Shown: positions 17,800-46,125, numbered from the stretch's first letter. The stretch is 64,000 nt of DNA from an uncultured Eudoraea sp. (GCA_947258555.1 CAMYJF010000002.1:12070-76069); one strand, 5' to 3'. Made by a program: numbers and translations. Notes: a model not told the origin generated them from the sequence alone.

Positions 17800-19761
17800 A
17801 TGGCAAGATTGCTAAAAATATTCTTGATAACGATTCTCTTGTTAGGCTATAACTCGCTGAAGGCACAGACTATTCCTATATCTGACCTCAACTTCCTGGA
17901 TGAATTCAAAGCGACAGCGGGAGCAGAGAACAGATACCAATTCTTTTACAATACGATAAACCGATATAACGAGAATTCGGCTTATGACTGGCTAGATGCG
18001 GTTACGATATTCATCAGGGATGCAGAGCGTGAACAAGATTCTGTGGGTATAAAATTCTACCAATTTATGCGCTCTCAGATCCACTACGATCTTGGGGATT
18101 ACGACAAGAGTGTGGAATTGGCACGAGACCTTTACACCACAGACAATGGCTTTAGTCAACCTGTCGTTTCACGACTACTCGATCTGATGGACGCTAACTA
18201 TGCCGCCTTAAAACTCTATGAGAAACAAATTGAGGTTCGTAAGTTTAAGCGGGAACTGGGCGTAACCGAAAATATAGCCTTCTACGACATCTACTCTAAT
18301 CTTGGTTTGCACAGGCAGGCTATGGAAGATTACATTAACGATGTAAAAAAAACAATACCGGATTCAGACCTCTACGGACTTGCCAAATACAACAATCAAA
18401 TAGGGCAGTATCTGCTTATGGATGGATCTCCATCAGTAGCCCTTGCCAATTTTACAAAAGCAAGGAGCTTCCTTAAAATATTTTTGGCGGATATTAATAT
18501 GGTCAAAACAGCTCGTGAGATCCAGGGAGCTAATTTATTACAAGGCATTATCGAGGGGAACATTGGGAAGTGCAAATTAAATCTCAAACAATATGAAGAA
18601 TCCCTGGCCTATCTGGAAAATAGCCTGTCCCTCATAAAGGAATATAATATTGGCGTGTTTTCAGAGGAGCTGGTTGAAATCACCCTGGCCCTTGCCGAAA
18701 GTCATTTGCGCTTGAATAATCCGGAGATGGCCCTGGAGTATCTCAATTCCAATATCCAGCTAAAGCAAGCCGATCATTTACTTCGTTATAACAGACTTAC
18801 AGCTTCCTACTTCAATTCCATTGGCGACTTTGAACGGGAATCTGATTATCTCAAACGAAATGTCCGGATCCAGGACAGCATTAAGCAGTTAGAATCTACA
18901 TTGCGAAAGCAACAGTTAGTAGCGGTCGTAGCTAAAGAAGACCTGGATAGTTCTAAAAAACTGATCGATGAGCAGAAGGAGGAAATGAAGCGCGCACGGA
19001 GTGATCTTGCAGCTAAGGACGACAGGATCACCCTGGTATTTATTTCACTAGTGTTTACCTTACTGGGTTTTGCAGGACTGGTATATGCCTACTTAAAAAG
19101 TATTAAGAATCAGCGATTGATCGCTGAGCAGAAATTCATTATTGAGAATTCACTTGTTGAAAAAGATTCTTTGCTAAAAGAGATCCATCACCGGGTGAAG
19201 AACAATCTTCAGATGGTTTCCAGTCTGTTAAGTCTGCAAACTAAGAATACAAGATCTAAGGCGGCCATTGAAGCATTGGAAGAAGGAAAGAGTCGGGTAA
19301 AGGCCATGGCACTTATCCATCAAAAACTATATCAGAACGACGACCTTTCCGTTATTGAGATGCAGGGCTATATCGAAAGCCTGGTAAACAGCGTGCAGTC
19401 TGTCTTCAAAAAGGGAAGCTCAAAGATCAACATAACAATTGACGCAGAAGGCGTGGAGCTCGACATTGATCGCGCGATACCCTTCGGATTAATACTGAAT
19501 GAATTGGTTTCCAACTCATTTAAATATGCCTTCCCGGATGAAAAAGACAACGGTAAGATCTACATCCACCTTCGGAAGAACAAGGAACAAGGATTTTTTG
19601 AATACACAGATAACGGAGTTGGCCTGCCGCCCAATTATGAAGATCAGGTAGACACCTCTATGGGGATCAAACTTATCAATCGTCTGGTCAACCAGCTTCA
19701 ATCTACTCTTAACATAGATAAAACTAGCGAAGGGGTTCGTTTTTGGTTCAATTTTAAATAA
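17800..19761 (+). CDS. Sensor histidine kinase with N-terminal periplasmic TPR region, one TM helix, and HisKA_2-type plus HATPase_c core
   Basis: Signal peptide, TPR-like repeats, TM helix (ITLVFISLVFTLLGFAGLVYAYL), H-box EIHHRVKNNLQMVSSLL, and an N-box ELVSNSFKYAF. Confidence 0.85.
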   Translation: MARLLKIFLITILLLGYNSLKAQTIPISDLNFLDEFKATAGAENRYQFFYNTINRYNENSAYDWLDAVTIFIRDAEREQDSVGIKFYQFMRSQIHYDLGDYDKSVELARDLYTTDNGFSQPVVSRLLDLMDANYAALKLYEKQIEVRKFKRELGVTENIAFYDIYSNLGLHRQAMEDYINDVKKTIPDSDLYGLAKYNNQIGQYLLMDGSPSVALANFTKARSFLKIFLADINMVKTAREIQGANLLQGIIEGNIGKCKLNLKQYEESLAYLENSLSLIKEYNIGVFSEELVEITLALAESHLRLNNPEMALEYLNSNIQLKQADHLLRYNRLTASYFNSIGDFERESDYLKRNVRIQDSIKQLESTLRKQQLVAVVAKEDLDSSKKLIDEQKEEMKRARSDLAAKDDRITLVFISLVFTLLGFAGLVYAYLKSIKNQRLIAEQKFIIENSLVEKDSLLKEIHHRVKNNLQMVSSLLSLQTKNTRSKAAIEALEEGKSRVKAMALIHQKLYQNDDLSVIEMQGYIESLVNSVQSVFKKGSSKINITIDAEGVELDIDRAIPFGLILNELVSNSFKYAFPDEKDNGKIYIHLRKNKEQGFFEYTDNGVGLPPNYEDQVDTSMGIKLINRLVNQLQSTLNIDKTSEGVRFWFNFK

Positions 19762-23765: not shown

Positions 23766-25106
23766 ATGTGCGATCGACGTAATTTTCTTCTTTTCATATC
23801 ACTTTTTTTGACAATAGCCACTAATCTTTCGGCACAGATCCTGGCTGAAAGGGATCGGGCTAAGGTTGTAGATGACCTCCTTGAGGAACGTTTTGAAACG
23901 GTTTTGCCCGGACTTATGGACCAAACGGGTTTTGATATGTGGATCCTGATCTCAAGAGAGTACAACGAAGATCCTGTATTACGGACCATGCTGCCAGCAA
24001 CCTGGCTCAACGCCAGAAGAAGGACCATCCTCGTTTTTTATCGTAATAAAGCCCAGGACACTCTTGAAAAATTAGCCGTGGCCCGCTACAATGTTGGTAA
24101 AAGTATTACCTCTGCCTGGGACAAGGAAAAAGAACCGGACCAGTGGAAAAGATTAATGGAAATTATCGAGGAACGGGATCCTGCTGTCATAGGCTTGAAT
24201 TATTCCAAAGACCACAATATTGCCGACGGCCTGGATAAAACAGATCACGATGAGTTTATGAGTTATCTGCCCGAAACGTATACCTCCAGGGTTAGATCGG
24301 CCGAAAACCTGGCCGTGGCCTGGATAGAGACTCGCACAGCTTCTGAGATGGAGATCTTTGAGGAGATGGTACAGATCACACATGATATCATTGCAGAAGC
24401 TTTTTCAAATGCAGTGGTAAAACCGGGTACTACTACGACTACGGATATTGAGTGGTGGATGCGCCAGAAAGTAACAGATATGGGTCTTGAAACATGGTTT
24501 CACCCTTCTGTGGATATTCAACGTACGAGCAAAGAACTGGAAGGGCACCTGTATTCATTCTCCAACCGCCCCGAACAGGAAGTGATCCTCCCGGGCGACT
24601 TGCTCCATTGCGATTTCGGCATAACATATTTGCGACTCAATACGGACTGCCAGGAATTGGCTTATGTCTTAAAACCTGGCGAAACAGAAGCACCTGAATT
24701 TTTGGTTAATGCACTTAAAGACGGGAACAAAGTCCAGGATTATCTCACTGCGAATATGATCAAAGGGCTCACCGGGAACCAGATACTAGCCAATGCATTA
24801 GAGCAAGCCAGGTCTAATGGATTAATTCCATCTATTTATACGCACCCATTAGGCACCTACGGGCATTCTGCCGGTACGACAATTGGGATGTGGGATGCAC
24901 AAGGGGGTGTCATGAAGGATGATGGCGAGAATTACCCATTGAATTACAATACTTCGTACGCAATAGAATTGAACACCACAGTACATATCCCAGAATGGGA
25001 ACGAGATATTCGCGTAATGCTGGAAGAGGCAGGATTCTATGGCGAAGAGGGCTTCCGCTATGTGAACGGTAGGCAAACAGAATTAATGCTGATAAACGCA
25101 AAGTAA
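23766..25106 (+). CDS. Secreted M24-family (Xaa-Pro/creatinase-like) metallopeptidase
   Basis: Signal peptide. Overall similarity to aminopeptidase P-type proteins, judged from the C-terminal pita-bread region (DFG...HPLG..GH...EL). Motif-level call only. Confidence 0.55.
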   Translation: MCDRRNFLLFISLFLTIATNLSAQILAERDRAKVVDDLLEERFETVLPGLMDQTGFDMWILISREYNEDPVLRTMLPATWLNARRRTILVFYRNKAQDTLEKLAVARYNVGKSITSAWDKEKEPDQWKRLMEIIEERDPAVIGLNYSKDHNIADGLDKTDHDEFMSYLPETYTSRVRSAENLAVAWIETRTASEMEIFEEMVQITHDIIAEAFSNAVVKPGTTTTTDIEWWMRQKVTDMGLETWFHPSVDIQRTSKELEGHLYSFSNRPEQEVILPGDLLHCDFGITYLRLNTDCQELAYVLKPGETEAPEFLVNALKDGNKVQDYLTANMIKGLTGNQILANALEQARSNGLIPSIYTHPLGTYGHSAGTTIGMWDAQGGVMKDDGENYPLNYNTSYAIELNTTVHIPEWERDIRVMLEEAGFYGEEGFRYVNGRQTELMLINAK

Positions 25107-25166
25107 GAACTGCAATTTAATTTCATTGACTTTATGTATTATAGAAATATGCTACAAAATGCTACA

Positions 25167-26918
25167 ATGATTAAGTATAGAGTACTACTATTACTATTTC
25201 TACTGCCCGCGGCTCTATGGGCTCAATCCAGAACAATTACAGGGGTGATAACAGATGGGGTAGAACCCCTGGATAATGTGTCGGTGCGGATAAAGGATAC
25301 AGGTATAACGACAACCTCCGATGAAAAAGGTAAATACAAGATCGAGGCCAATAAAGGGGATGTCTTGCAATACCGACTGCTGGGCATGAAAGAGATCGAG
25401 GTTATAGTGGAAGACGTGACCCGTATTTTAAATATTACTATGTATCCGGATTTTGAGGAATTAGATGAAGTTGTGGTTGAAGGGAGAACAAAAGAGACGC
25501 AGCGAGATCTGGCTTTGGCCTATCGCCTTAAGAAGTCGGTCGTAAGGACTTCTTTTGGTTTTGTCGATGCTGAGACCAGCGGGGGAAGTATCAAAGTCAT
25601 GGCCGAAGACGAAATAAATGATTCAGCCTTATGTATCCTGGACATGATACGTGGCAATTTTGCCAGTGTACGGGTTGTTGGGGATTGTGTAACCGGCGGC
25701 AACCTGGTTATAAGAGGGGCGGGATCGATCAATAATCCCAGAACGGCGATCTTTGATGTAGACGGACTTATCCTTCAGGATGCCCCCATTTGGTTATTGC
25801 CGAGTCAGATCAAGCGAATAGCGATACTTTCCGGATTGGGATTGACATCTAAATATGGTTCCTCAGCAGCAGGTGGGGTCGTTGTAATTAACACTAGCAA
25901 TACAGCACAATTAAAGGGTCCGAACGGAGAACAAAATTATGATTACGCCAAGCTCAGGGATAATTTTGTTACAGAGAAACCTTTAACCGCAGAGGAAGCC
26001 GCTAATTACGACCCTAACTACATGAGAGAATTCAGGAAGGCGCAGTCTTTAGAAGAGGCGGAGGCCCTATTTGAAAAATTTCAAGAATCCTATGGCAAGT
26101 ATCCCTTTTATTATCTCGATAGCTACAGGTATTTCGCCCAGGAACGTGGGGCTATGGCAATAGCAGATTCTATCATTGCAAGGAATTACGAACTTTTCGA
26201 ATCCAATTCACCTTTACTTAAGGCTCTGGGATATTTATACCAGGAAGATAATAGACACGATAAGGCCAATGAGATCTTTAAGAAAGTGTTCTCACAACGC
26301 TCACGCTACATACAGTCCTATATGGATCTGGCCATGAGCTATGCAGACAATGAAAATGTGACCAGGGCAACCGCTTTATTTTCTCGATATAATCTCCTGG
26401 TAGAAAGTGGCCAATTCCCGGATTCGCTGGAGATCAATGCACTGATAGACAGAGAGTTCAATAACCTGCTTATGCGGTATTCCAAGGATATCATGAAGAA
26501 ATCCAATGTCAAGAAAGTCTTTGTAGACGAGGAAGAAATGCAGGGCACCCGCCTGGTCTTTGAGTGGAATGACAGCGAAGCTGAATTCGATATTCAATTC
26601 GTAAATCCAGGGGATCAGTATTATACCTGGCATCATAATATGGAGGAGAATTACGACCAAATTGTTCAGGAAAAACAATATGGCTTCTCGGCAATTGAAT
26701 ACTATATGGACAATATAATGACAGGTTTGTGGAAAATAAATGTCAAATATCTGGGTAATAAAAGCCTGACACCCACCTATCTTAAAGTCACTCAGTATAC
26801 CAACTACGGGACTCCACAACAGAGCAAGAAGATCCAGGTCTTAAAGCTTAGTTTGAAAAACGCGAACATGGAATTTTTCAAACTAAACAATCGGGGTGTA
26901 TTTTCTTCAAAGCGTTGA
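25167..26918 (+). CDS. Paralogue 1 of a secreted CarboxypepD_reg-Plug-TPR-beta-sandwich protein (no beta-barrel)
   Basis: Signal peptide MIKYRVLLLLFLLPAALWAQ (start moved to ATG 25167). CarboxypepD_reg-like ITGVITDG...TSDEKGKYKI. Plug-like VIRGAGSINNPRTAIFDVDGL...AAGGVVVINT. Helical TPR-like middle. Conserved C-terminal FEWNDSEAEFDIQFVNPGDQYYTW. Confidence 0.85.
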   Translation: MIKYRVLLLLFLLPAALWAQSRTITGVITDGVEPLDNVSVRIKDTGITTTSDEKGKYKIEANKGDVLQYRLLGMKEIEVIVEDVTRILNITMYPDFEELDEVVVEGRTKETQRDLALAYRLKKSVVRTSFGFVDAETSGGSIKVMAEDEINDSALCILDMIRGNFASVRVVGDCVTGGNLVIRGAGSINNPRTAIFDVDGLILQDAPIWLLPSQIKRIAILSGLGLTSKYGSSAAGGVVVINTSNTAQLKGPNGEQNYDYAKLRDNFVTEKPLTAEEAANYDPNYMREFRKAQSLEEAEALFEKFQESYGKYPFYYLDSYRYFAQERGAMAIADSIIARNYELFESNSPLLKALGYLYQEDNRHDKANEIFKKVFSQRSRYIQSYMDLAMSYADNENVTRATALFSRYNLLVESGQFPDSLEINALIDREFNNLLMRYSKDIMKKSNVKKVFVDEEEMQGTRLVFEWNDSEAEFDIQFVNPGDQYYTWHHNMEENYDQIVQEKQYGFSAIEYYMDNIMTGLWKINVKYLGNKSLTPTYLKVTQYTNYGTPQQSKKIQVLKLSLKNANMEFFKLNNRGVFSSKR

Positions 26919-27045
26919 TTTTCCATGCTTTGAACTTGTATATATCTTCACCCTGATACGCTGACTACCGTCTGATTTTAACATATGATTTAGAGGTCAA
27001 AGCTTCATTATTGAGTATCTTCAAAGAGCTAAAAAAGATACCACT

Positions 27046-28893
27046 ATGAAAAAAGTACTTCTTCTATTGGCCCTAATGGGTACTATTGGTTATGCCCAGG
27101 ACCGTTCCAAGACAATTAGCGGTACCGTTAACGACGGACGCGCTGCTCTCTCAAATGTTTCCGTGACCGTAGAGGAATCGGGCGAAGAAACATCAACTGA
27201 TGCAAAAGGTAGATATATGGTCTCGGCTAAGCCGGGGGATGTCATCCGCTATGGGTATCAGGGTATGAAACCTGTTCGCATTCTTGTAGAAGACGTAACA
27301 CGCTATTTGAATATCTCCCTGGCTCCTGATGTAAAGGAATTGGAAGAAGTTGTGGTCATTGGGAATAATCGCAAGTCACAAAAGGATATGGAGCTTGAAT
27401 ACAGGGTGAACCGTAATTTAATCCGTACAGCCTATGGCTATATAGATGCCGATCGGGCACCTGGAAATATTCGTTTCATGCATGAAGAAGAGATCAATGC
27501 TGTCGGTATTTGTATTCTTGATGTACTCAAAAATCAGTTTCCTGGCGTCATAGTTAACGGGGATTGCTTAGGTGCAAGAGGCCCTTCCCTTCGAGATGCC
27601 ACCTCTTTTAGCCGGATATCGGGTCGAGATCAGAATCTTGATTTCACGGCTCAAATCCCTACTTCTTCTACAGAGATAGACCGACAGGGTGTTGTATTTG
27701 TACGCGGTTCTCACTCGATCAATAATCCAAGGGCGGCCATCTTCGATGTAGACGGTGTTATTTTCAGTCAACCTCCAATTTGGCTTGATGTAAAGAATAT
27801 TAAGCGGATCGCAGTATTGAACAATTTTGCCACGGTTACACAGTATGGAAGCGCAGGAACTGGTGGGGTTATCGTGGTTAACACATATACTGGAACAGCG
27901 GTATCAAACAAAATAACAGATTTTGCCAAGCTGAGGAACAATTTTGCTACGCCTGCCTTGTCTAAGGAACAAATTCAGGCCAATTGGCCCACTTACCTGC
28001 AAGAGCTGTATAAAAGTACTTCGGGTGAAGATGCCAAGCTTACTTTCGATGAATACTATCTAAAGTACAGAAGGTCTCCCCATTTTATCCTGGATACCTA
28101 TGGATATTTTTATAACCAAAGAGGCGATGTGGCCTTTGCCGATGAGATCATTGAAAAGAATAGTTCTTTATTTGAAGGCAATCCGGTCTTGTTAAAAGCT
28201 CTGGCTTATAACTACGAATCTCAGGGGCGTGCTGCAAAGGCAAATGAGGTATATAAAGCGGTTTATAAATTGCGACCTCAATACGGACAATCCTATATGG
28301 ATCTGGCAAATAGCTATCGCGATCTTAGGAATTATAAACAGGCAGCGGCCATATATAATCGCTATACCTACATGAAGGATAAAGAGATCCTTCGCAAAGA
28401 CAGCACGGCATTTGATCCTATAATCAACAGGGAATACAACAATTTGCTAAGTCTCTATAACGACGATCTTGTTTCTGGTGAAGGAGCTGATGAGTTGTTC
28501 GTAGATGATGAAGATTTTGAAGGTACTCGTCTTGTCTTTGAGTGGAATGACGGGGATGCGGAATTTGATTTACAATTTGTAAATCCGGGAGATCAGCATT
28601 ATACCTGGAAACATACACTGGCTAGCAATGATGAGCTGCTGATGAGTGAAAAAGCGAACGGCTTTAGTTCTTCTGAGTATCTATTGGACGGATCCTTGCC
28701 AGGGACCTGGAAAATAAATGCAAAGTACCATGGTAATATGAGTCTGTCGCCAACGTATTTAAAGGCAACGATTTATCACAACTATGGAAGTGTTTCACAA
28801 CGCAAAGAAGTGAAGGTATTTAAACTGCACATGCAGGATATTAACCAAGAGTTATTTTCACTATCAAACAGTAGCAGTGTCGTACTCCGCTAA
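27046..28893 (+). CDS. Paralogue 2 of the same family
   Basis: Collinear with paralogue 1 over its whole length. It carries an extra insertion of about 25 aa in the Plug-like region. Confidence 0.88.
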   Translation: MKKVLLLLALMGTIGYAQDRSKTISGTVNDGRAALSNVSVTVEESGEETSTDAKGRYMVSAKPGDVIRYGYQGMKPVRILVEDVTRYLNISLAPDVKELEEVVVIGNNRKSQKDMELEYRVNRNLIRTAYGYIDADRAPGNIRFMHEEEINAVGICILDVLKNQFPGVIVNGDCLGARGPSLRDATSFSRISGRDQNLDFTAQIPTSSTEIDRQGVVFVRGSHSINNPRAAIFDVDGVIFSQPPIWLDVKNIKRIAVLNNFATVTQYGSAGTGGVIVVNTYTGTAVSNKITDFAKLRNNFATPALSKEQIQANWPTYLQELYKSTSGEDAKLTFDEYYLKYRRSPHFILDTYGYFYNQRGDVAFADEIIEKNSSLFEGNPVLLKALAYNYESQGRAAKANEVYKAVYKLRPQYGQSYMDLANSYRDLRNYKQAAAIYNRYTYMKDKEILRKDSTAFDPIINREYNNLLSLYNDDLVSGEGADELFVDDEDFEGTRLVFEWNDGDAEFDLQFVNPGDQHYTWKHTLASNDELLMSEKANGFSSSEYLLDGSLPGTWKINAKYHGNMSLSPTYLKATIYHNYGSVSQRKEVKVFKLHMQDINQELFSLSNSSSVVLR

Positions 28894-28914
28894 GTAAAAA
28901 GAGACGCAAAGATC

Positions 28915-28950
28915 ATGGGGTTGCCGTTTCTTCGGTAACCCCATTTATTT
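28915..28950 (+). terminator. Hairpin terminator candidate between paralogues 2 and 3
   Basis: ATGGGGTTGCCG tttctt CGGTAACCCCAT followed by TTATTT. Confidence 0.5.
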
Positions 28951-28962
28951 ATAAATTGAACT

Positions 28963-30732
28963 ATGAAATACCTGGTACTATATGCTGCTTGCTTATGCAC
29001 GATTGGAATGTGGGCTCAAGAGAACCGCATCATAAGGGGGAAGATCTCAGATGGGACGAACCTTCTAAAAGATGTTCAGATCCAAAATGGGGATGATAGC
29101 TCTGTTGTCTTTACAGACGAATCCGGCGCCTATCAGATCGAGGCGGCTACAGGAGATATACTGCGGTTTATGTATGCGGGAAAGAAAAACTACCGTATCC
29201 GTGTGGAAGATGTGACCCGATTTCTTAACCTGATCATGATCCCTGATGTACAGGAATTGGACGAGGTGACAGTAACGAATAGCCGGCGAAGATCCCAAAA
29301 AGAATTGGCTGCAGAATACCGTGTCAATCCAGCCTTGATCCGCACAGCATTTGGCATAATCGATGCCCGAACTGCACCAGGAAAGGTACAAATGGTTTCA
29401 GGGGATGAGATTGCGCCTATTGGTCTGAACATTCTGGATGTAATACGTAACAGGTTTACGGGAGTGCAGGTTTTTGGAGATGGGCAGTTTAGGAGCACGG
29501 GATTAGATGCTAATGGATTACCCCAGCAAGGAGGGTATATTACAATCAGGGGTCAGGGATCAGTTAGCAGTCCAAGAACGGCCATCTATGATATAGACGG
29601 TCAGGTTTTTTCAAATACTCCTTTATGGCTGGATGTAAACAACATTAAACGCATGGCCATTGTAAATTCCCTGGCTTATAATGCACGTTATGGTTCCGTC
29701 GGTGGTGGAGGTGTAATTATTGTAAATACCGTTAGCGGGGAGGCCTCCATGCCCAAAACAGGGGATCTGGCCCGATTGCGCAATAATTATGTGAAGGGGG
29801 CAGTCCCGGCTTATGAGGAGTTGCTTGACGATAAGCCGATCTATATTCGCGAACTTACTCAAATTAACCAGTTGCAGGATGCAATAAATGTATTTGAGAA
29901 ATACCGCACTCAATATACCGCTTCTCCTTATTTCTATATGGATATGTATGCGTATTTTGTTTCTCGCAACGATGGCGGGCAAATGGCTTCTAAGATCCTG
30001 GAAGACAACATAGCTAAAATCGAGGGCAATCCGGTACTGATGAAAGGACTTGCCTATATTCTGGAGGAAAATGGGAAAAGTGAGGAAGCCCTGGAGGTGT
30101 ACAAAGAAGTATTCAAACTGCGACCCCATTACAGTCAGTCTTACCTGGACGTGGCCCGAGCCTATCGCGAGGCCGGGGAGATCGGAAAATCTGCTGCCAT
30201 ATATGCCCGATACAAATACCTCTTAGAAGAAAAATTTCTGGCACCTTCCGATGATTTTGGCAAGATACTTCGGCATGAGAATGATAATCTGCTTGCGGTG
30301 GATGGGAGAAAAATAGGTAAGAGGGTTCAAAATATTCTTACTGATCCTTTTGTTAATGGCACTACACGTGTCGTCTTTGAATGGAATGATAGCGAAGCCG
30401 AGTTTGAATTGCAGTTCGTAAACCCGGGCGGACAGTATTATACCTGGAAACATACCTATGCCGATAGTGAAGAAAGGATCGTAGATGAAAAAGATAATGG
30501 CTACTCCATTGCCGAAAACATCATCGATAAAAATCTACCGGGCACCTGGACGGTGAATGCCAAATACTTGGGCAATAAGAGTCTGACGCCAACATATCTA
30601 AAGGTAACGGTGTATTCTGCTTATGGAGATCGTAGTCAGAGGAAACAAGTGCGTCATTATAAGCTCTTTTTGAAAGATGTGAATCAAAAATTATTCACAA
30701 TTTCTAATGGGAGTTCAGTAGTATCCAGATAG
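28963..30732 (+). CDS. Paralogue 3 of the same family
   Basis: Collinear with paralogues 1 and 2, with the same domain order and C-terminal FEWNDSEAEFELQFVNPGGQYYTW. Confidence 0.88.
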   Translation: MKYLVLYAACLCTIGMWAQENRIIRGKISDGTNLLKDVQIQNGDDSSVVFTDESGAYQIEAATGDILRFMYAGKKNYRIRVEDVTRFLNLIMIPDVQELDEVTVTNSRRRSQKELAAEYRVNPALIRTAFGIIDARTAPGKVQMVSGDEIAPIGLNILDVIRNRFTGVQVFGDGQFRSTGLDANGLPQQGGYITIRGQGSVSSPRTAIYDIDGQVFSNTPLWLDVNNIKRMAIVNSLAYNARYGSVGGGGVIIVNTVSGEASMPKTGDLARLRNNYVKGAVPAYEELLDDKPIYIRELTQINQLQDAINVFEKYRTQYTASPYFYMDMYAYFVSRNDGGQMASKILEDNIAKIEGNPVLMKGLAYILEENGKSEEALEVYKEVFKLRPHYSQSYLDVARAYREAGEIGKSAAIYARYKYLLEEKFLAPSDDFGKILRHENDNLLAVDGRKIGKRVQNILTDPFVNGTTRVVFEWNDSEAEFELQFVNPGGQYYTWKHTYADSEERIVDEKDNGYSIAENIIDKNLPGTWTVNAKYLGNKSLTPTYLKVTVYSAYGDRSQRKQVRHYKLFLKDVNQKLFTISNGSSVVSR

Positions 30733-39111: not shown

Positions 39112-39131
39112 ACAAGCTTCTTTTCTTTTTT
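39103..39131. terminator. Hairpin plus T-run between convergent genes
   Basis: GAAGCTT agac AAGCTTC TTTTCTTTTTT. Confidence 0.5.
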
Positions 39132-41640
39132 AAGACCCTTCGAACTCAAAATCATCATCCCCATTCATACGCGGGTTCCTTCCTTGGCGCTGAGCTTGTT
39201 GCTGGTTAAACCTAAATAGCAGGGAGGCTGTGATCTGACGTTCTCTCCATTGAAATTCGCTATACGTAAACACATTATCCGTCCTTGTTTCACTGCGGCG
39301 CTTACGCGAATTAAACAAGTCGCTTACGTTTAGTGAGAGTGTCATTTTGTCCTTGATCAGATCCTTGCTAAACGCCAGGTTTGTGCTCAAGATCCCTTTA
39401 TTCTTGCTTTGGGCATTTTCTGAAGGGCCCCGATAGAAAAGATTGGTTTGAAAATCAATCGCAGCGGGTAGTGGTAATTTGGCACTTAAACGTGTGAACC
39501 AGGTAAAATTATCCGCGTCAAAATTTTGAACGATCTCCTCATTCATAAAATTTGTATACTGATAATCGCCTCGTAATTTCTGCTGGAAGAGATTAATATT
39601 CCATGTTAGCCTCCAACTGCGTTTCGGTGTCCAGGAAGAAGTAGCTTCCCAGCCAATACGGGTGTCAGTGGCCAGATTGATGGGCGTGCGGGCTTGTACC
39701 GGTACAAAGACAGGATTAGCAGGATCATCAGGATTATCAATCTCCACTAGATCTCCTGTCTCTAACGTAATGAACTGAAATACACCTGTAGATCGGTTGT
39801 AATAGCCCGATGTGGTAAAAGTGACTTTTTCCCATCGCTTCAAATAGCCAATATCAAAGGCATTGGTATAGGTAGGATCCAAATTGGGATTCCCCTGGAA
39901 CAAGTTTGTATTACTGGAACGGGAGGGGAATGGATTAATAAACCTGGATCTGGGCCTTCTAAGACGCCTGCTATAACTGATCGTAAACTGTTCCTTCTCC
40001 GAAAATTCATAGCCAAAGAATAGGGAAGGAAACCAATCTGTGTATTTCTTGTTGTTCAGATCGTTGGTTGTGATCAGGTTCACGCCAATGTCGGATGCTT
40101 CCATCCGAAGGCCGCCTAGAACATTAAATTTACCCGCTTTAGTGCCCAACTGCATATAGGCAGCATTTACATATTCCTTATAATCTAGTTTGTTGCTAAA
40201 ATCCGGATCGGCGTCTAAATTGCCATTTTCCAGGATGCCAAAAGTAAAATCGGTAACAAACCTGTTAAAGCTGCCCCGATACCCCAATTCTAATTGCGCC
40301 TGGTTCTTTTCGCCGAATGGCAAGACATAATCAAACTGGACTAATTGCCTTTTTTGCATTTCATCATTAAGCGTCTGCTCTAACGGAAGGCTCTCATTTG
40401 CATTAAGAACAGTCTCCTCGATGATAGCATTTTCGAATTCGGTCTGAGAGGAATACTGATAGTCAAAAGTGAACTCATGTCCGGAGTCATCAATTTCATG
40501 TTTGAAGTTTAGTGCATATTGTATACGTTCATCATCTTCAGTTTCATTCGTATATCGATCCCTTTGGACGGTCGGTTGACCTGCTGCATCAAAATTGAAG
40601 AAATCAATGTTAATATCGTCTACTCCATCAGAATTGCCATATACAAGCGAATTCGTTATGCTGGTCTTTGGAGCGAAAAAGTATTCGAAGCCAATGTTGA
40701 CATTATAGCCGTTACGCTCCCGTTGGTATTTCCGGAACTCATCCTGAAAGCTCACCGTATTGCCATTGCTGTCAAAATTCTCTTGCTCAAAAAGAGCATT
40801 ACCCGGCGCATTTCGATAACGGTAGGTAGTGTTGGTAAAAAAATTGAACTTCTCACGCCTGAGATTCAAACTAACAGCCCCTCCAAAATTGTCAGGATTC
40901 CCGGCAAATACATTTAGCGATCCATTGACACCGCTTGTTTTACTTTGTTTAAGGACAATGTTCAGGATCCCGGCCGTACCTTCCGCATCATAACGTGCAG
41001 ATGGGTTGGTGATGACCTCTACTTTTTCGATAGCTTCAGCTGGTAGCTGCTGCAGGGTTTCCGGGTTGAGTCCGGATAGGGCAGAGGGTTTCCCGTTAAT
41101 AAGGATACGTACACTTTCGTTACCCCTCAGGCTGATATTTCCCTCAACATCTACTGTAACCGAAGGGACATTGTCAAGTACATCCGTTACTGAACCGCCC
41201 CTTACAGTCAGGTCGGAGCCTACATTGTATACTTTTTTATCCAGTCGCAATTCTACCGTAGTTCGCTCCCCGACAACCTCCACAGCCTCAAGCTGCTCAA
41301 CATCTATTGCCAGGCGGATCGTACCCAGGTCAGTCGATGCTTCGAACGTTAGTCCTTCCTGGGAATATGTTTTATAAGAAAGGTATTCTACACGTACATT
41401 ATACCTTCCAGGAAAGGTAGAGACGTTAAATTTTCCATCCAGTTCTGTGAGTCCGCCCGTTACCCGGTCCGGGTTTCTAAGACTTTGTAGAATTAAAGTG
41501 GCGTATTCCAGGGGCTGCCCGGTATCGGCATCTACTACGGTTCCAGTGATTTCAATGGGTTGTGGACGTGTGCCTTGAGGGCGTTGTCCTGCTAGAAAGA
41601 TAGGTAAGCACAAGAGCAGGATCAGCAGGGGTTTTTGCAT
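39130..41640 (-). CDS. Outer-membrane beta-barrel protein, TonB-dependent-receptor type (CarboxypepD_reg + Plug + barrel)
   Basis: The signal peptide starts at MQKPLLILLLCLPIFLAGQ (ATG 41640). ITGTVVDADTGQPLEYATL carboxypeptidase-regulatory domain and Plug motifs are present. The C-terminal region is long, aromatic/Gly-rich with alternating pattern, and the barrel terminus ends in F. Confidence 0.85.
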   Translation of the reverse strand: MQKPLLILLLCLPIFLAGQRPQGTRPQPIEITGTVVDADTGQPLEYATLILQSLRNPDRVTGGLTELDGKFNVSTFPGRYNVRVEYLSYKTYSQEGLTFEASTDLGTIRLAIDVEQLEAVEVVGERTTVELRLDKKVYNVGSDLTVRGGSVTDVLDNVPSVTVDVEGNISLRGNESVRILINGKPSALSGLNPETLQQLPAEAIEKVEVITNPSARYDAEGTAGILNIVLKQSKTSGVNGSLNVFAGNPDNFGGAVSLNLRREKFNFFTNTTYRYRNAPGNALFEQENFDSNGNTVSFQDEFRKYQRERNGYNVNIGFEYFFAPKTSITNSLVYGNSDGVDDINIDFFNFDAAGQPTVQRDRYTNETEDDERIQYALNFKHEIDDSGHEFTFDYQYSSQTEFENAIIEETVLNANESLPLEQTLNDEMQKRQLVQFDYVLPFGEKNQAQLELGYRGSFNRFVTDFTFGILENGNLDADPDFSNKLDYKEYVNAAYMQLGTKAGKFNVLGGLRMEASDIGVNLITTNDLNNKKYTDWFPSLFFGYEFSEKEQFTISYSRRLRRPRSRFINPFPSRSSNTNLFQGNPNLDPTYTNAFDIGYLKRWEKVTFTTSGYYNRSTGVFQFITLETGDLVEIDNPDDPANPVFVPVQARTPINLATDTRIGWEATSSWTPKRSWRLTWNINLFQQKLRGDYQYTNFMNEEIVQNFDADNFTWFTRLSAKLPLPAAIDFQTNLFYRGPSENAQSKNKGILSTNLAFSKDLIKDKMTLSLNVSDLFNSRKRRSETRTDNVFTYSEFQWRERQITASLLFRFNQQQAQRQGRNPRMNGDDDFEFEGS

Positions 41641-41641
41641 G

Positions 41642-42088
41642 TTAGGTTTTAGATTTCTTCTTTTTCTTCTTTTTTTTCGCCTTTCCCCGATTCTCATAGA
41701 GATCTTGTAAGGCTTGATATTTTTCAGAAGGAAGGCTTTGTTCTAATTCTGCCTCCTGTTCCAACTTCATATTTTCCAGTGCCTCTCTATTCTTATCCGC
41801 TTCCAAAGCCAGGATCCGTAATTCGATCCTTTTTTGCACATATTTAGTAAGGATAGAACGTACTACGGCTTCTTCAAATGGATTGAGTTCACAAGCCTCC
41901 ATGATCTTTGGCATCTGCAATTCTACCAGCTCTTCAGCTGTTAAGGCCTCAGGTTCTTCCATACGTCCGTTTTGATCGCGAGGCATAACCGGGGCGCCAC
42001 GTGTTCCATATTGTCGGTATGGGGTGCCCACTTGCGCTAATACTGCGCCATTGATCATAAAAACAAATAAGAATAAAATTACACGCAT
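41642..42088 (-). CDS. Secreted hypothetical protein with poly-lysine C-terminal tail
   Basis: Signal peptide MRVILFLFVFMINGAVLAQ, a helical acidic body, and a terminal KAKKKKKKKKSKT. Its stop is 1 nt from the downstream OMP start. Confidence 0.6.
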   Translation of the reverse strand: MRVILFLFVFMINGAVLAQVGTPYRQYGTRGAPVMPRDQNGRMEEPEALTAEELVELQMPKIMEACELNPFEEAVVRSILTKYVQKRIELRILALEADKNREALENMKLEQEAELEQSLPSEKYQALQDLYENRGKAKKKKKKKKSKT

Positions 42089-43713: not shown

Positions 43714-46125
43714 ATGAAAATGCGATGCCTGAGTTATTTTACCCTCTTATTTGTATGTGTAAATACATACGCTCAATTCACAGATAAAAGCTCCGAATAC
43801 CAAAAGTTCAAGGGCTTTTTTGATTTCTATTATGATGACAAAAAAGACAAGATCTTTTTAGAGGTCGATAAAGTGGATGAGGAGTTTTTGTATGTGTATT
43901 CGCTAAGTAGTGGCATAGGAAGCAATGATATTGGTCTCGATCGGGGGCAATTAGGAAATGAGCAAGTAGTTTATTTTAAAAAAGCAGGGACAAAACTCCT
44001 CTTAGTACAACCTAATCTAAGATACAGGGCCCTCACAGATAACAAACTGGAAAAGCAGTCTGTAGAGCAAGCGTTCGCGAAATCTGTCTTGTTTGGTTTT
44101 CCCATCATCGAAGAAAATAAAGGCGCTTATTATATTGACATCACCGATTTCCTGATGCAGGATGCACACAGGGTAGCGGCCCGACTCAAAAGGGCGAAGC
44201 AGGGATCTTACAGCCTGGATAAAAGCAAGAGTGCTTTTGATTTTAACAGGACGAAGGCATTCCCTAATAATCTGGAATTTGATGCCATTTTAACCTTTAA
44301 AGGGGAGCCGCAGGGGGGTTATATACGCTCTGTGACGCCTAATCCTAACTTAGTCACGGTGTCTCAGCATCATTCATTTATTGAACTCCCGGATTCCGAG
44401 TATGAGCCAAGGGAATTTGATCCGCGATGCGGGGCCTATCCTTTTAGTTATTATGACTACGCCACTCCGGTAGAGGAGCCTATTTTAAAGCGATATGTTA
44501 CACGTCACAGATTGCAAAAGAAGGACCCGAATGCAGAAGTCAGCGAAGCTGTAGAGCCTATTATCTACTATTTGGATAATGGAACCCCGGAGCCCGTGCG
44601 TACTGCACTGCTGGAAGGGGGTAGATGGTGGAACCAGGCCTATGAGAGTATCGGATTTAAAGATGCCTTCCAGGTACGGATCCTGCCAGATGATGCAGAC
44701 CCGTTGGATGTGCGCTATAATGTGATCCAGTGGGTGCATAGATCGACACGTGGATGGAGTTATGGTTCGAGTGTGAGTGATCCCCGAACCGGAGAGATCA
44801 TCAAAGGACATGTGAGTCTGGGAAGTCTCCGTATTCGCCAGGATTTTTTGATCGCCCAGGCTTTGATGGACAAGCCCTTTGCCGAACGGGATGATAATCA
44901 TGAGGCCATGCTGGAAATGGCCCTTGCCAGGATCCGTCAGTTATCGGCACATGAAATTGGACACACCCTGGGTTTCGCGCATAATTTTGCGGCCAGTACA
45001 AATAATAGAGCCTCAGTAATGGACTACCCGCATCCCTATGTGGCCATCAAAGGCGGTGCTTTAAATTTTAAGGAAGCTTATGATACCGGAATAGGAGATT
45101 GGGATAAGGTGTCAGTAGCCTATTCATATTCAGATTTTGGTCAGGATGCAGATGAAGGCGAGGCCCTGAATTCTATTCTGGAAAGGGCTTTTCAAAGAGG
45201 CTTGCGCTATATTTCCGATCAGGATGCCAGGCCACAGGGAGGGTCTCATGCCCAGGCACACTTATGGGATAATGGTACTATTCCTTCGCAGGAGTTAGGA
45301 AGAGTATTAGAAGTTCGGGAAAAAGCCATCTCACAATTTTCTATAGATAACATACGCACCGATGAGCCTAATTCAGTTTTAGAAGATGTTTTTGTACCTC
45401 TCTATTTTTTCCACAGGTATCAAGCAGAAGCCGCTGTCAAGCTTATTGGAGGTCAAAATTACACCTATGCAGTGAAGGGATCCGCTTCACCGGTCGTCAG
45501 TACGCTCTCGAAAGATGCGCAATTGAAAGCCCTGGAACAGATGCTCCAAACATTAGATCCAAATACATTGATGATACCCGAGCATGTCTTAAAATTATTT
45601 CCGCCGCGGGCTATGGGATACCCCAGGACAAGGGAATCTTTTAATGGAGTGACCGGCGTGAGCTTTGATGCTATTTCGGCAGCAGAAACAGCGGCTGATT
45701 TTAGTCTTTCTCTATTACTGCATCCTCAGCGTGCATCTCGTTTGGTTCAAAACAAAGCTTTGGATAAGAACCAGTTAGGCCTTGAAGAAATGCTGGATAA
45801 TTTAATGGAAGCCAGCCTAAACAGATCAGGTGGTTCCGGCTATGCCGAAACCATCAGGAATGCAGTGAATTTTAGGGTGATCCACCATCTGATGAACCTC
45901 GCTGCGCACAACCAGGTTTATGATCAGGTGAACGCGATCGCTGCAGCCCGACTCCTGACCATCAAAAAAGAGCTCCTCACCAAAAAACCTCAGGCTGTCC
46001 ATATAGAAATGGTAAGAAGGATCGACGCCTTCTTTGAGGATATGGATGAGTTTAAACCAACGCCTGTGGCAAAGATCCCGGATGGTTCGCCTATAGGGAT
46101 GTCATGCATGGAACCCCTAAAATAG
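43714..46125 (+). CDS. Secreted zinc-dependent metalloprotease (DUF5117/DUF4953-type, 803 aa)
   Basis: Signal peptide and HEIGHTLGFAHNF zincin motif. Length and layout match large Bacteroidota metalloproteases. Confidence 0.8.
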   Translation: MKMRCLSYFTLLFVCVNTYAQFTDKSSEYQKFKGFFDFYYDDKKDKIFLEVDKVDEEFLYVYSLSSGIGSNDIGLDRGQLGNEQVVYFKKAGTKLLLVQPNLRYRALTDNKLEKQSVEQAFAKSVLFGFPIIEENKGAYYIDITDFLMQDAHRVAARLKRAKQGSYSLDKSKSAFDFNRTKAFPNNLEFDAILTFKGEPQGGYIRSVTPNPNLVTVSQHHSFIELPDSEYEPREFDPRCGAYPFSYYDYATPVEEPILKRYVTRHRLQKKDPNAEVSEAVEPIIYYLDNGTPEPVRTALLEGGRWWNQAYESIGFKDAFQVRILPDDADPLDVRYNVIQWVHRSTRGWSYGSSVSDPRTGEIIKGHVSLGSLRIRQDFLIAQALMDKPFAERDDNHEAMLEMALARIRQLSAHEIGHTLGFAHNFAASTNNRASVMDYPHPYVAIKGGALNFKEAYDTGIGDWDKVSVAYSYSDFGQDADEGEALNSILERAFQRGLRYISDQDARPQGGSHAQAHLWDNGTIPSQELGRVLEVREKAISQFSIDNIRTDEPNSVLEDVFVPLYFFHRYQAEAAVKLIGGQNYTYAVKGSASPVVSTLSKDAQLKALEQMLQTLDPNTLMIPEHVLKLFPPRAMGYPRTRESFNGVTGVSFDAISAAETAADFSLSLLLHPQRASRLVQNKALDKNQLGLEEMLDNLMEASLNRSGGSGYAETIRNAVNFRVIHHLMNLAAHNQVYDQVNAIAAARLLTIKKELLTKKPQAVHIEMVRRIDAFFEDMDEFKPTPVAKIPDGSPIGMSCMEPLK

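What the first reader, a model, noticed from the sequence alone, without database searches (positions are those of the whole stretch)
25167..30732. Tandem triplication of a barrel-less CarboxypepD_reg-Plug-TPR-beta-sandwich secreted protein
- **Arrangement:** three consecutive same-strand genes of about 583, 615 and 589 aa are collinear paralogues.
- **Domain order:** each has a signal peptide ending in AQ, followed by a carboxypeptidase-regulatory-like domain (I.G.V.DG...TD..G.Y). Next comes a segment that reads like a TonB-dependent-receptor Plug (I.RG..S.....P..A.FDVDG...........I..IA.L........YGS....GGV.V.NT).
- **What is missing:** a SusC or TonB-dependent transporter would continue into a 22-strand barrel of 500 to 800 aa. 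These proteins continue into about 230 aa of helical, TPR-like sequence and a conserved beta-rich C-terminal module of about 110 aa.
- **Why it matters:** a Plug domain without its barrel, fused to TPR and an uncharacterised beta-sandwich and amplified three-fold just downstream of a secreted M24 peptidase, is not an architecture I can assign to a described system.
- **Possible roles (speculative):** a soluble or OM-tethered ligand-capture component, a decoy, or a partner for a separate barrel.
Basis: partly seen in the sequence, partly recalled or inferred. Interest (0 to 1): 0.72.

Follow-up and report, generated by a model that had tools for sequence, protein, structure and literature searches.

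The report
Barrel-less SusC-like TonB-box protein array
Three neighbouring genes encode exported proteins that keep the inner "front end" of a nutrient-import channel (docking domain, energy-coupling motif and plug) but replace the channel barrel with a helical repeat and an uncharacterised beta-sandwich. They belong to a large, unstudied family of marine Flavobacteriaceae.

Summary
**Observation:** confirmed. Three same-strand genes (25167-26918, 27046-28893, 28963-30732; 583, 615 and 589 aa) are collinear paralogues at 41-45% identity.

**Architecture of each protein:**
- Signal peptide, then a SusC-type NTE domain.
- A strictly conserved TonB box (L-[DE]-E-V-[VT]-V) in a disordered linker.
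- A SusC/RagA-type plug. A profile of this region matches SusC plugs in the PDB at E = 1.9e-14.
- A TPR solenoid, then a DUF2135-like beta-sandwich with no solved relative.
- No barrel. The AlphaFold model has mean pLDDT 86.5.

**The array is real and old:**
- It is not an assembly artefact and not a recent triplication.
- The same site, between an M24 peptidase gene and a carboxyltransferase gene, holds 1-4 diverged copies in 49 species genomes.
- The family has about 500 clusters at 50% identity. All named members are Flavobacteriaceae or unclassified Bacteroidota, and all names are generic.
- No paper was found on it.
- A second barrel-less class (NTE-plug-vWA/YfbK) is also widespread.

**Interpretation:**
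- Best reading: soluble periplasmic clients of TonB. This is inferred, not shown.
- Rivals: TonB-independent scaffolds, or plugs acting in trans on another barrel.
- Verdict: a new variant of a known kind, and moderately to highly interesting.

The parts
23766..25106 (+). Exported M24-family peptidase gene (446 aa), the conserved upstream neighbour of the array
   Evidence: Pfam Peptidase_M24 E=2.2e-8, 34.5 bits against a cut-off of 23. The N-terminus resembles a signal peptide. A homologue lies directly upstream of the array in 61 of 77 related loci.
25167..26918 (+). W1, paralogue 1 (583 aa; the gene caller's start at 25134 gives 594 aa)
   Evidence: It forms a singleton paralogue clade, with close orthologues only in near relatives.
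25167..25226 (+). W1 signal peptide (MIKYRVLLLLFLLPAALWA|Q), with no lipobox
   Evidence: Read from the sequence. It is the only hydrophobic stretch in the protein.
25230..25457 (+). W1 NTE, the CarboxypepD_reg-like Ig domain of SusC type
   Evidence: PF13715 43.3 bits. TIGR04056 positions 1-96. The top Foldseek hit is 9hfj, the NTE of SusC-dex, with target-normalised TM 0.87 and rmsd 1.1.
25461..25478 (+). W1 TonB box, LDEVVV
   Evidence: It aligns with the TonB box of the SusC homologue 8aa4_A. The experimentally defined Bt1763 TonB box reads DEVVVTG (PMC7782687). In the family, L is 157/157, E 144/157, V 157/157 and V 146/157. It lies in the AF2 segment 99-108 with pLDDT below 50.
25500..25898 (+). 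W1 plug domain of SusC/RagA type, with the covarying Cys156-Cys174 pair
   Evidence: Profile against the PDB: SusC homologue 5t3r_D E=1.9e-14 and RagA 6e-14. Cys pair: both present in 111 sequences, neither in 38, one only in 1. AF2 pLDDT 82-91.
25941..25964 (+). Conserved motif D-x-A-[KR]-L-R-[DN]-N in the low-confidence linker after the plug
   Evidence: D259 and N266 are invariant, and A261, L263 and N265 are at least 90% conserved, in 122 sequences. R264 is invariant among the three window paralogues. The region is disordered in AF2 (247-265). Coordinates.
25989..26516 (+). W1 TPR-like helical solenoid (aa 275-450)
   Evidence: AF2 predicts nine helices at pLDDT 94-98. Foldseek hits OGT and consensus TPR proteins at E of 2.5e-4 and weaker. 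Pfam TPR models reach their cut-offs in W2 and W3.
26538..26891 (+). W1 C-terminal DUF2135-like beta-sandwich (8 strands and one helix), the most conserved part of the protein
   Evidence: PF09906 26.3 bits against a cut-off of 22. 32 of 34 family members match. AF2 model of the domain alone has pLDDT 91.6. No PDB hit by sequence or by fold (best E=0.11, TM 0.41). Mean pairwise identity is 60%, against 40-44% for the other domains.
27046..28893 (+). W2, paralogue 2 (615 aa), a member of the widespread core clade
   Evidence: Orthologues at 55-60% identity in Muricauda, Robiginitalea, Croceitalea and Maribacter.
27340..27357 (+). W2 TonB box, LEEVVV
27574..27687 (+). W2-specific low-complexity insertion of about 38 aa inside the plug
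   Evidence: Alignment gap relative to W1 and W3. Similar insertions occur in orthologues of 610-620 aa.
28915..28944 (+). Terminator-like hairpin (12-bp stem, 7 G-C pairs) followed by a T-rich tail, between W2 and W3
   Evidence: sequence.
28963..30732 (+). W3, paralogue 3 (589 aa); its clade is shared with the last-copy genes of Robiginitalea; it lacks the Cys pair
29257..29274 (+). W3 TonB box, LDEVTV

Best explanation
**What the proteins are (shown)**
- W1, W2 and W3 are exported through Sec and cut by signal peptidase I.
- They are soluble and have no barrel.
- Each is built from the periplasm-facing N-terminal module of a SusC/RagA TonB-dependent transporter: the NTE Ig domain, an exposed TonB box and the plug.
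- In place of the 22-strand barrel, this module is fused to a TPR solenoid and a DUF2135 beta-sandwich.

**How they most likely work (inferred)**
- They stay in the periplasm and act as barrel-less clients of TonB.
- The conserved, disordered TonB box is captured by the C-terminal domain of TonB, as in SusC.
- The plug appears to be held by the TPR/DUF2135 part rather than by a barrel.
- The highly conserved C-terminal sandwich and the TPR groove would bind a common envelope partner or a peptide-like ligand.
- The result would be one of two things. Either ExbBD-TonB force is coupled to a periplasmic or outer-membrane-associated process, or TonB is titrated away from true transporters.
- The old, diverged paralogues would provide different specificities.
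For: **Architecture**
- Alignment with the SusC homologue 8aa4_A places ELEEVVVIG on VLDEVVVVG.
- The TonB box of Bt1763 has been shown to be required for function, and it sits directly after the NTE (PMC7782687).
- The plug profile hits SusC/RagA at E = 1.9e-14.
- The AF2 model shows NTE, a disordered TonB box, the plug, a linker, TPR and a beta-sandwich, with no barrel.
- The top fold hit is the NTE of SusC-dex.

**Selection on the TonB box**
- L and the first V are 157/157, E is 144/157 and the last V is 146/157.
- The segment is predicted to be disordered. That is the signature of a linear binding motif rather than a structural element.
- The motif persists in the most distant representatives.

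**Localisation**
- There is a signal peptide without a lipobox, and no other hydrophobic segment.
- The Cys pair covaries (111 both, 38 neither, 1 mixed), which indicates a disulfide in an oxidising compartment.
- No T9SS C-terminal-domain model was hit.

**Plug docking**
- pTM is 0.72 for 583 residues. TPR plus sandwich make up only about 53% of the chain, so the plug is probably placed confidently against them. This is an inference.

**The N-terminal module behaves as an autonomous unit**
- The 835-aa variants carry two NTE-TonB box-plug units.
- Other variants add vWA domains or further NTE copies.
- A separate NTE-plug-vWA/YfbK class is widespread in Flavobacteriaceae.

**Real genes under constraint**
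- 516 clusters at 50% identity score E < 1e-30.
- The array is present in all 49 genomes where both flanking markers were found.
Against: - No direct evidence exists for TonB binding, for localisation or for any phenotype.
- Force transduction needs the C-terminal end to be anchored, and no anchor or partner was identified.
- Gene neighbourhood gives little help. The array sits in a conserved housekeeping block (men genes, M24 peptidase, carboxyltransferase, ABC-F), and no TonB/ExbBD genes lie nearby.
- Isolated TBDT plugs are reported to be poorly folded outside their barrel (from memory, not checked here).
- The plug fold was not recovered among the 50 listed Foldseek hits, which were dominated by TPR and NTE matches.
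Confidence: 0.4

Rival explanations
1. TonB-independent periplasmic scaffold or chaperone. The TPR and DUF2135 parts would do the work, for example by binding unfolded outer-membrane proteins, peptides or envelope complexes. The NTE-plug part would be only a structural or docking module inherited from SusC, and the 'TonB box' would be conserved for another partner or as a linker.
For: - TPR proteins are common periplasmic scaffolds. Weak NCBIfam hits point to PilW, BepA, PrsT and GltE.
- The C-terminal sandwich is the most conserved part of the protein.
- The function of the NTE in SusC is itself unknown and may lie outside transport (PMC7782687).
- BamP shows that a periplasmic protein with a related N-terminal domain can work without TonB (PMC12611786).
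Against: - The near-invariance of L-x-E-V-x-V in a disordered segment, identical to the functional SusC TonB box, is hard to explain without TonB.
- All TPR family hits fall far below their cut-offs.
Confidence: 0.25
2. Plug acting in trans. The soluble plug would enter the lumen of a separate barrel from the periplasm, acting as a gate or regulator. Candidate barrels are a plug-less TBDT-like barrel, BamA or the T9SS translocon. The different paralogues would serve different barrels.
For: - Separately exported FhuA cork and barrel reconstitute activity in E. coli (from memory, not checked here).
- A BamP loop enters the BamA barrel (PMC12611786).
- NCBIfam BamP gives weak hits to the N-termini (21-29 bits).
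- A conserved partner of about 380 aa with two NTE-like domains follows the array in many genomes.
Against: - No orphan barrel is present in the window. The only TBDT-like gene (39130-41697, minus strand) has its own plug.
- The BamP cut-off of 230 bits is far from met, and the similarity is limited to the NTE.
- The 380-aa partner is absent from this window.
- pTM suggests that the plug is already occupied by the protein's own TPR/sandwich part (an inference).
Confidence: 0.12
3. Cell-surface or secreted adhesin-like proteins, exported further by T9SS or another route. In that case the TonB box would have no role.
For: - Family relatives are fused to vWA domains, and DUF2135 occurs in VIT-vWA proteins (the VIT-vWA link is from memory).
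- One source names a homologue 'putative outer membrane protein'.
Against: - No T9SS C-terminal-domain model was hit in the NCBIfam or Pfam scans.
- There is no lipobox.
- The conserved TonB box would be meaningless outside the periplasm.
Confidence: 0.05
4. Decaying remnants of SusC genes, or an assembly duplication artefact.
For: Some sources annotate homologues as 'TonB-dependent SusC/RagA subfamily outer membrane receptor'.
Against: - The ORFs are intact, with 62 invariant columns across 122 sequences.
- About 500 clusters at 50% identity belong to the family.
- The array is conserved at one site in 49 genomes.
- Independent contigs reproduce the three-gene order.
- The copies share only patchy DNA similarity.
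Confidence: 0.01

Closest known systems
SusC/RagA-type TonB-dependent transporters (TIGR04056; e.g. Bt1763, BT2264, RagA)
   Same: - The N-terminal module has the same order: signal peptide ending in A|Q, NTE (PF13715), a DEVVV-type TonB box, then the plug.
- The plug profile hits SusC/RagA at E about 1e-14, which is better than its hits to classical TBDTs.
   Different: - There is no 22-strand barrel and no adjacent SusD gene.
- The whole-protein score is 60-85 bits against a cut-off of 368.
- A TPR and a DUF2135 sandwich follow the plug.
- The proteins are predicted to be soluble.
NTE-Plug-vWF_A-VWA-YfbK_C proteins of Flavobacteriaceae (about 700 aa, uncharacterised; e.g. L008:5668-7812)
   Same: - They carry a barrel-less SusC N-terminal module with a TonB box (YLEEVVV), fused to soluble domains.
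- They occur in the same bacterial family and sometimes near the array.
   Different: - Their C-terminal part is a vWA/YfbK module instead of TPR-DUF2135.
- None is present in this window.
BamP, the periplasmic accessory subunit of the Bacteroidota BAM complex (NF053692; PMC12611786)
   Same: - It is a soluble periplasmic protein whose N-terminal domain resembles the NTE (weak hits).
- It is a precedent for a periplasmic protein that reaches into an outer-membrane barrel from below.
   Different: - BamP is about 250 aa, and nothing read here mentions a plug, a TonB box, TPR or DUF2135 in it.
- Scores of 21-29 bits fall far below the cut-off of 230.
DUF2135 (PF09906) proteins
   Same: The C-terminal sandwich matches this Pfam model.
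   Different: - As far as I recall, DUF2135 is typically found at the end of VIT-vWA proteins (from memory, not tested).
- Its function is unknown, no paper was found and no solved structure exists.
Soluble TonB-box ligands (colicins B, Ia and M; pesticin) and the proposed vWA/TPR motor-driven force transducers (PMC12204202)
   Same: - A TonB box on a protein that is not itself a barrel.
- The combination of vWA and TPR domains with PMF-driven motors has been proposed.
   Different: - The colicins and pesticin are imported toxins or inner-membrane-tethered proteins, not endogenous soluble plug-bearing proteins.
- There is no sequence relationship.

Membership tests
SusC/RagA TonB-dependent transporter (TIGR04056) | N-terminal NTE (CarboxypepD_reg-like) domain | tested here: met
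   PF13715 scores 43.3 and 40.3 bits in W1 and W2. TIGR04056 positions 1-96 match in all three. Foldseek hits 9hfj with target-normalised TM 0.87.
SusC/RagA TonB-dependent transporter (TIGR04056) | TonB box directly after the NTE | tested here: met
   LDEVVV, LEEVVV and LDEVTV align with the TonB box of 8aa4_A. The motif is conserved in 144-157 of 157 sequences.
SusC/RagA TonB-dependent transporter (TIGR04056) | Plug domain (PF07715) | tested here: met
   Single sequences are marginal (22.9, none, 24.4 bits against 23.9). The family profile hits SusC/RagA plugs at E = 1.9e-14.
SusC/RagA TonB-dependent transporter (TIGR04056) | 22-strand beta-barrel (PF00593 or equivalent), giving a protein of about 1000 aa | tested here: not met
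   No barrel family was hit. The proteins are 583-615 aa. AF2 predicts a TPR plus an 8-strand sandwich with high confidence.
SusC/RagA TonB-dependent transporter (TIGR04056) | Whole-protein score at or above the curated cut-off (368.25 bits), and the SusC signature TIGR04057 at or above 46.2 bits | tested here: not met
   TIGR04056 scores 84.9, 77.8 and 59.5 bits. TIGR04057 scores 18.5, 17.2 and 10.1 bits.
SusC/RagA TonB-dependent transporter (TIGR04056) | Adjacent SusD-like lipoprotein gene | tested here: not met
   The gene downstream of each copy is another copy, or the carboxyltransferase on the minus strand. The same holds in related loci.
DUF2135 (PF09906) | Score at or above the gathering threshold of 22 bits | tested here: met
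   W1 scores 26.3 bits. W2 (20.0) and W3 (18.1) fall just below. 32 of 34 family C-terminal domains match at E <= 0.1.
TPR repeat proteins | Repeated helix-turn-helix pairs that match TPR models | tested here: met
   TPR_19 scores 25.5 against 25 in W2, and TPR_14 scores 26.5 against 23.5 in W3. AF2 predicts a helical solenoid. Foldseek hits OGT and consensus TPR proteins at E of 2.5e-4 and weaker.
BamP (NF053692) | Score at or above the curated cut-off of 230 bits over the 251-position model | tested here: not met
   Scores are 24.0, 29.4 and 21.2 bits, limited to the signal peptide and NTE.
T9SS cargo | C-terminal sorting domain (type A TIGR04183/PF18962 or type B TIGR04131/PF13585) | tested here: not met
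   No such model was hit in the NCBIfam scan at E <= 1, or in the Pfam scan of 34 C-terminal domains at E <= 0.1.
TonB-dependent (functional class) | Physical binding of the TonB box to the TonB C-terminal domain, and a PMF-dependent function | not testable with these tools
   Only motif conservation and predicted disorder are available.

The most novel reading that the evidence does not exclude
These proteins, together with the NTE-plug-vWA/YfbK class, define a class of barrel-less periplasmic TonB-dependent mechanotransducers.
- The plug would be cradled by a TPR/DUF2135 module instead of a barrel.
- TonB pulling on the exposed TonB box would unfold the plug and so release, activate or relocate a bound partner or peptide cargo.
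- This would extend the use of the Ton motor beyond the gating of outer-membrane barrels.
Probability: 0.15. Interest if true: 0.85.

Novelty: new variant of a known kind. Interest (0 to 1): 0.66.

Why it matters
- Plug domains and TonB boxes are understood only as parts of outer-membrane barrels. The role of the SusC NTE is an open question.
- This is a large family in abundant marine polymer degraders. It keeps the NTE, the TonB box and the plug under strong constraint while discarding the barrel.
- Such proteins give a soluble, tractable handle for studying what the NTE and plug bind. They also allow a test of whether TonB energy is used for something other than barrel gating.
- If these proteins titrate or redirect TonB, they could regulate all TonB-dependent nutrient uptake in these bacteria.
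- Some pipelines label homologues as SusC/RagA receptors, which would inflate transporter and PUL counts.

Tried and rejected
1. **Hidden barrel:** rejected by Pfam and NCBIfam and by the AF2 models.
2. **Assembly duplication:** rejected by patchy DNA similarity and by independent contigs.
3. **Solved relative of the C-terminal domain:** no sequence hit and no significant fold hit (best E = 0.11). The fold stays unassigned beyond 'beta-sandwich with one helix'.
4. **Structural confirmation of the plug:**
   - The full-length Foldseek list was dominated by NTE and TPR hits.
5. **Defence-system membership:** no PADLOC hits.
6. **Orphan barrel or TonB/ExbBD genes in the window:** none seen. The only TBDT-like gene has its own plug.
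7. **Literature:** searches for DUF2135, for barrel-less or plug-only proteins, and for NTE function found nothing relevant beyond the SusC NTE and BamP papers.
8. **Source contig:** looking it up by the W1 product found no record.
9. **Residue-coupling (DCA) analysis of plug against TPR contacts:** considered, but not run. About 500 partly redundant sequences are too few for about 580 columns.

Full report
**1. The observation**

The window carries three consecutive + strand ORFs:
- W1: 25167-26918, 583 aa. An upstream ATG at 25134 gives the 594-aa product that the public gene call uses.
- W2: 27046-28893, 615 aa.
- W3: 28963-30732, 589 aa.

They align from end to end at 41-45% identity, with BLASTP scores of 490-509 bits. 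At the DNA level only short patches are similar, and the longest shared exact word is 19 nt or less. Two independent JGI metagenome contigs show the same order: M24 peptidase, a W1-like gene (595 aa), W2 (96% identical), a W3-like gene (576 aa), then a carboxyltransferase on the opposite strand. The three genes are therefore real, old paralogues and not an assembly artefact.

**2. Anatomy**

| Element | W1 residues | Main evidence |
|---|---|---|
| Signal peptide ending ...A\|Q, no lipobox | 1-20 | |
| NTE (CarboxypepD_reg-like Ig domain) | 22-97 | |
| TonB box | 99-104 | |
| Plug | 112-244 | |
| Linker motif D-x-A-[KR]-L-R-[DN]-N | 259-266 | |
| TPR solenoid | 275-450 | |
| DUF2135-like beta-sandwich | 458-575 | |

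*Export.* The signal peptide is the only hydrophobic segment.

*NTE.*
- It matches CarbopepD_reg_2 and the first 96 positions of the SusC/RagA model TIGR04056.
- In the AlphaFold2 model of W1 (mean pLDDT 86.5, pTM 0.72) this domain is the best structural match of the whole protein.
- That match is to the crystal structure of the NTE of SusC-dex, 9hfj (target-normalised TM 0.87, rmsd 1.1 A).

*TonB box.*
- Directly after the NTE comes LDEVVV, LEEVVV or LDEVTV.
- HMMER aligns this segment with the VLDEVVVVG of the SusC homologue 8aa4_A.
- In Bt1763 the sequence DEVVVTG at this position is the TonB box, and its deletion or mutation abolishes function (PMC7782687).
- Across 157 family members from the window and 77 genomes, L and the first V are invariant, E is 144/157 and the last V is 146/157.
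- AlphaFold gives the segment 99-108 a pLDDT below 50. A disordered yet near-invariant motif is what a linear binding site looks like.

*Plug.*
- Single sequences sit at the Pfam threshold.
- A 33-sequence profile of the region finds SusC and RagA plugs in the PDB at E = 1.9e-14 to 1.5e-13 over about 135 residues. It finds classical TBDT plugs (Cir, FepA, FyuA) at 1e-6 to 1e-3.
- Two cysteines in the plug are present together in 111 sequences, absent together in 38 (including W3) and unpaired in only one. This points to a disulfide, and therefore to an extracytoplasmic location.

*Linker and C-terminal parts.*
- A second low-confidence linker (247-265) carries the conserved motif D-x-A-[KR]-L-R-[DN]-N.
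- Residues 275-450 form a TPR-like solenoid of nine helices (pLDDT 94-98).
- Residues 460-574 form an eight-strand beta-sandwich with one inserted helix.
- The sandwich matches Pfam DUF2135: W1 scores 26.3 bits against a cut-off of 22, and 32 of 34 family members match.
- It is the most conserved part of the protein, at 60% mean pairwise identity against 40-44% elsewhere.
- It has no solved relative by sequence or by fold (best Foldseek E = 0.11, TM 0.41).

*No barrel.* Nothing resembles a membrane barrel, and no T9SS sorting domain was detected.

**3. The family and its locus**

*Size and naming.*
- An exhaustive profile search finds 516 clusters at 50% identity with E < 1e-30.
- All named members come from marine Flavobacteriaceae or unclassified Bacteroidota: Eudoraea, Muricauda/Flagellimonas, Croceitalea, Robiginitalea, Maribacter, Croceivirga, Gilvibacter and others.
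- They carry only generic names, such as 'carboxypeptidase-like regulatory domain-containing protein', 'TPR repeat protein' or 'DUF2135 domain-containing protein'. Some are wrongly named 'SusC/RagA receptor'.

*Synteny.*
- The site is conserved in species-representative genomes: OSBS, CPBP protease, an AMP-ligase-like gene, the M24 peptidase, then the array.
- After the array come the carboxyltransferase on the minus strand, an oxidoreductase and an ABC-F gene.

*Copy number.* In all 49 genomes where both flanking markers were found, the interval holds 1 (13 genomes), 2 (20), 3 (8) or 4 (8) full-length copies.

*Paralogue clades.*
- W2 belongs to the widespread core clade.
- W3 belongs to a clade shared with the last-copy genes of Robiginitalea.
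- W1 is a singleton clade, seen only in close relatives.
- The closest species-representative genome locus (L028) has the W2 orthologue directly after M24.

*Accessory members in other genomes.* None of these is in this window.
- A protein of about 380 aa with two NTE-like domains, which in some genomes is fused to the family to give 873-892 aa proteins.
- A paralogue of about 745 aa with an extra N-terminal vWA domain.
- Variants of 835 aa with two NTE-TonB box-plug units.

*A second barrel-less class.* Proteins with NTE, TonB box, plug, vWF_A, VWA and YfbK_C domains (about 700 aa) are widespread in Flavobacteriaceae. The SusC N-terminal module therefore behaves as a mobile unit that is repeatedly joined to soluble domains.

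**4. How it most likely works**

*Shown:*
- The domain architecture.
- The absence of a barrel.
- Strong constraint on the TonB box.
- Features of an exported, non-lipidated, disulfide-bonded protein.

*Inferred:*
- The proteins stay in the periplasm and are bound by TonB through the TonB box.
- pTM is 0.72 although TPR plus sandwich are only about half of the chain. This suggests that the plug is placed confidently against them, so they may replace the barrel as the plug's cradle.
- The conserved sandwich and the TPR groove would hold a common partner or ligand.
- The outcome could be force coupling to a process that does not involve a barrel, or titration of TonB.
- I give this reading a probability of about 0.4.

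*Rivals:*
- A TonB-independent TPR scaffold: 0.25.
- A plug acting in trans on a separate barrel: 0.12. No orphan barrel is in the window, and the BamP similarity is limited to the NTE and far below its cut-off.
- A surface adhesin: 0.05.
- Remnants or an artefact: about 0.01.

*Limits of the neighbourhood evidence.*
- Adjacency to the exported M24 peptidase is universal, with a 60-nt gap and no terminator predicted between the two genes.
- The whole block is syntenic housekeeping DNA, so the link is suggestive only. A role in handling imported peptides is possible but untested.
- A strong terminator-like hairpin separates W2 from W3.

**5. Comparison with known systems**

- The proteins resemble SusC/RagA in the NTE, the TonB box and the plug.
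- They fail the defining barrel, the curated score cut-offs and the SusD partnership, so they are not SusC transporters.
- They are not BamP.
- The C-terminal domain belongs to, or lies at the edge of, DUF2135. No publication was found for that domain and no structure exists.
- No paper describing plug domains without barrels was found.
- A 2025 analysis proposes that YfbK-like vWA proteins and co-occurring TPR proteins act as motor-driven force transducers (PMC12204202). That is a conceptual neighbour, not a relative.

**6. Verdict**

This is a real, large, uncharacterised family with a new architecture built from known domains. The conserved TonB box on a barrel-less protein is its most interesting feature. 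The mechanism is unproven. Novelty: new variant of a known kind. Interest: about 0.66.

Noticed in passing
L008:5668-7812 (and P0388-P0507): A second barrel-less architecture is widespread in many Flavobacteriaceae genera. It consists of a SusC-type NTE, a TonB box (YLEEVVV), a Plug (69.5 bits), then vWF_A, VWA and YfbK_C, in about 700 aa. It is annotated only as a VWA or YfbK domain protein.
   Followed up: partly
L041:17595-18722, L019:12560-13705 and about 25 other loci: A conserved protein of about 380 aa follows the array in many genomes. It has an NTE-like domain at each end, a TonB-box-like LNEVVV and an unassigned middle region of about 170 aa. In Maribacter it is fused to the family (L062:7131-9809, 892 aa). 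It is absent from this window.
   Followed up: partly
L041:7631-9889 and about 10 other loci: A distant paralogue of about 745 aa has an extra N-terminal short vWA domain (MIDAS-like DVSASM) ahead of the NTE, TonB box, plug, TPR and DUF2135-like parts.
   Followed up: partly
window 25941-25964, 27919-27942, 29764-29787: A conserved motif D-x-A-[KR]-L-R-[DN]-N (D and the last N invariant in 122 sequences) sits in the AlphaFold-disordered linker between the plug and the TPR. It may be a second linear binding motif. It remains unexplained.
   Followed up: no
window 28915-28944: A strong terminator-like hairpin (12-bp stem, 7 G-C pairs, T-rich tail) lies between W2 and W3. W3 may therefore be transcribed separately or by read-through.
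   Followed up: no
window 25134 vs 25167: The public gene call for W1 starts at 25134 (594 aa). Alignment with W2 and W3, and the signal peptide, favour the ATG at 25167 (583 aa).
   Followed up: partly
window 39130-41697 (minus strand): An ordinary TBDT-like outer-membrane protein (CarboxypepD_reg, Plug, OMP_b-brl_3; 855 aa) with its own plug lies 8 kb downstream. It shows what a complete barrel-containing relative looks like in the same genome.
   Followed up: partly
window 56697-59135 (+) and 2897-4441 (+): Two long ORFs (812 and 514 aa) have no Pfam match at E <= 1e-5.
   Followed up: no
window 43714-46125 (+): An 803-aa protein with DUF5117 and DUF4953 (Met-zincin) domains, a probable secreted metalloprotease. 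Together with the S9 prolyl oligopeptidase at 49459-51594 and the M24 peptidase, this makes the region rich in peptidases.
   Followed up: no
window 17800-19761 (+): A TPR-containing HisKA_2 histidine kinase is conserved upstream in 47 of 77 related loci. It is probably just part of the syntenic block.
   Followed up: no
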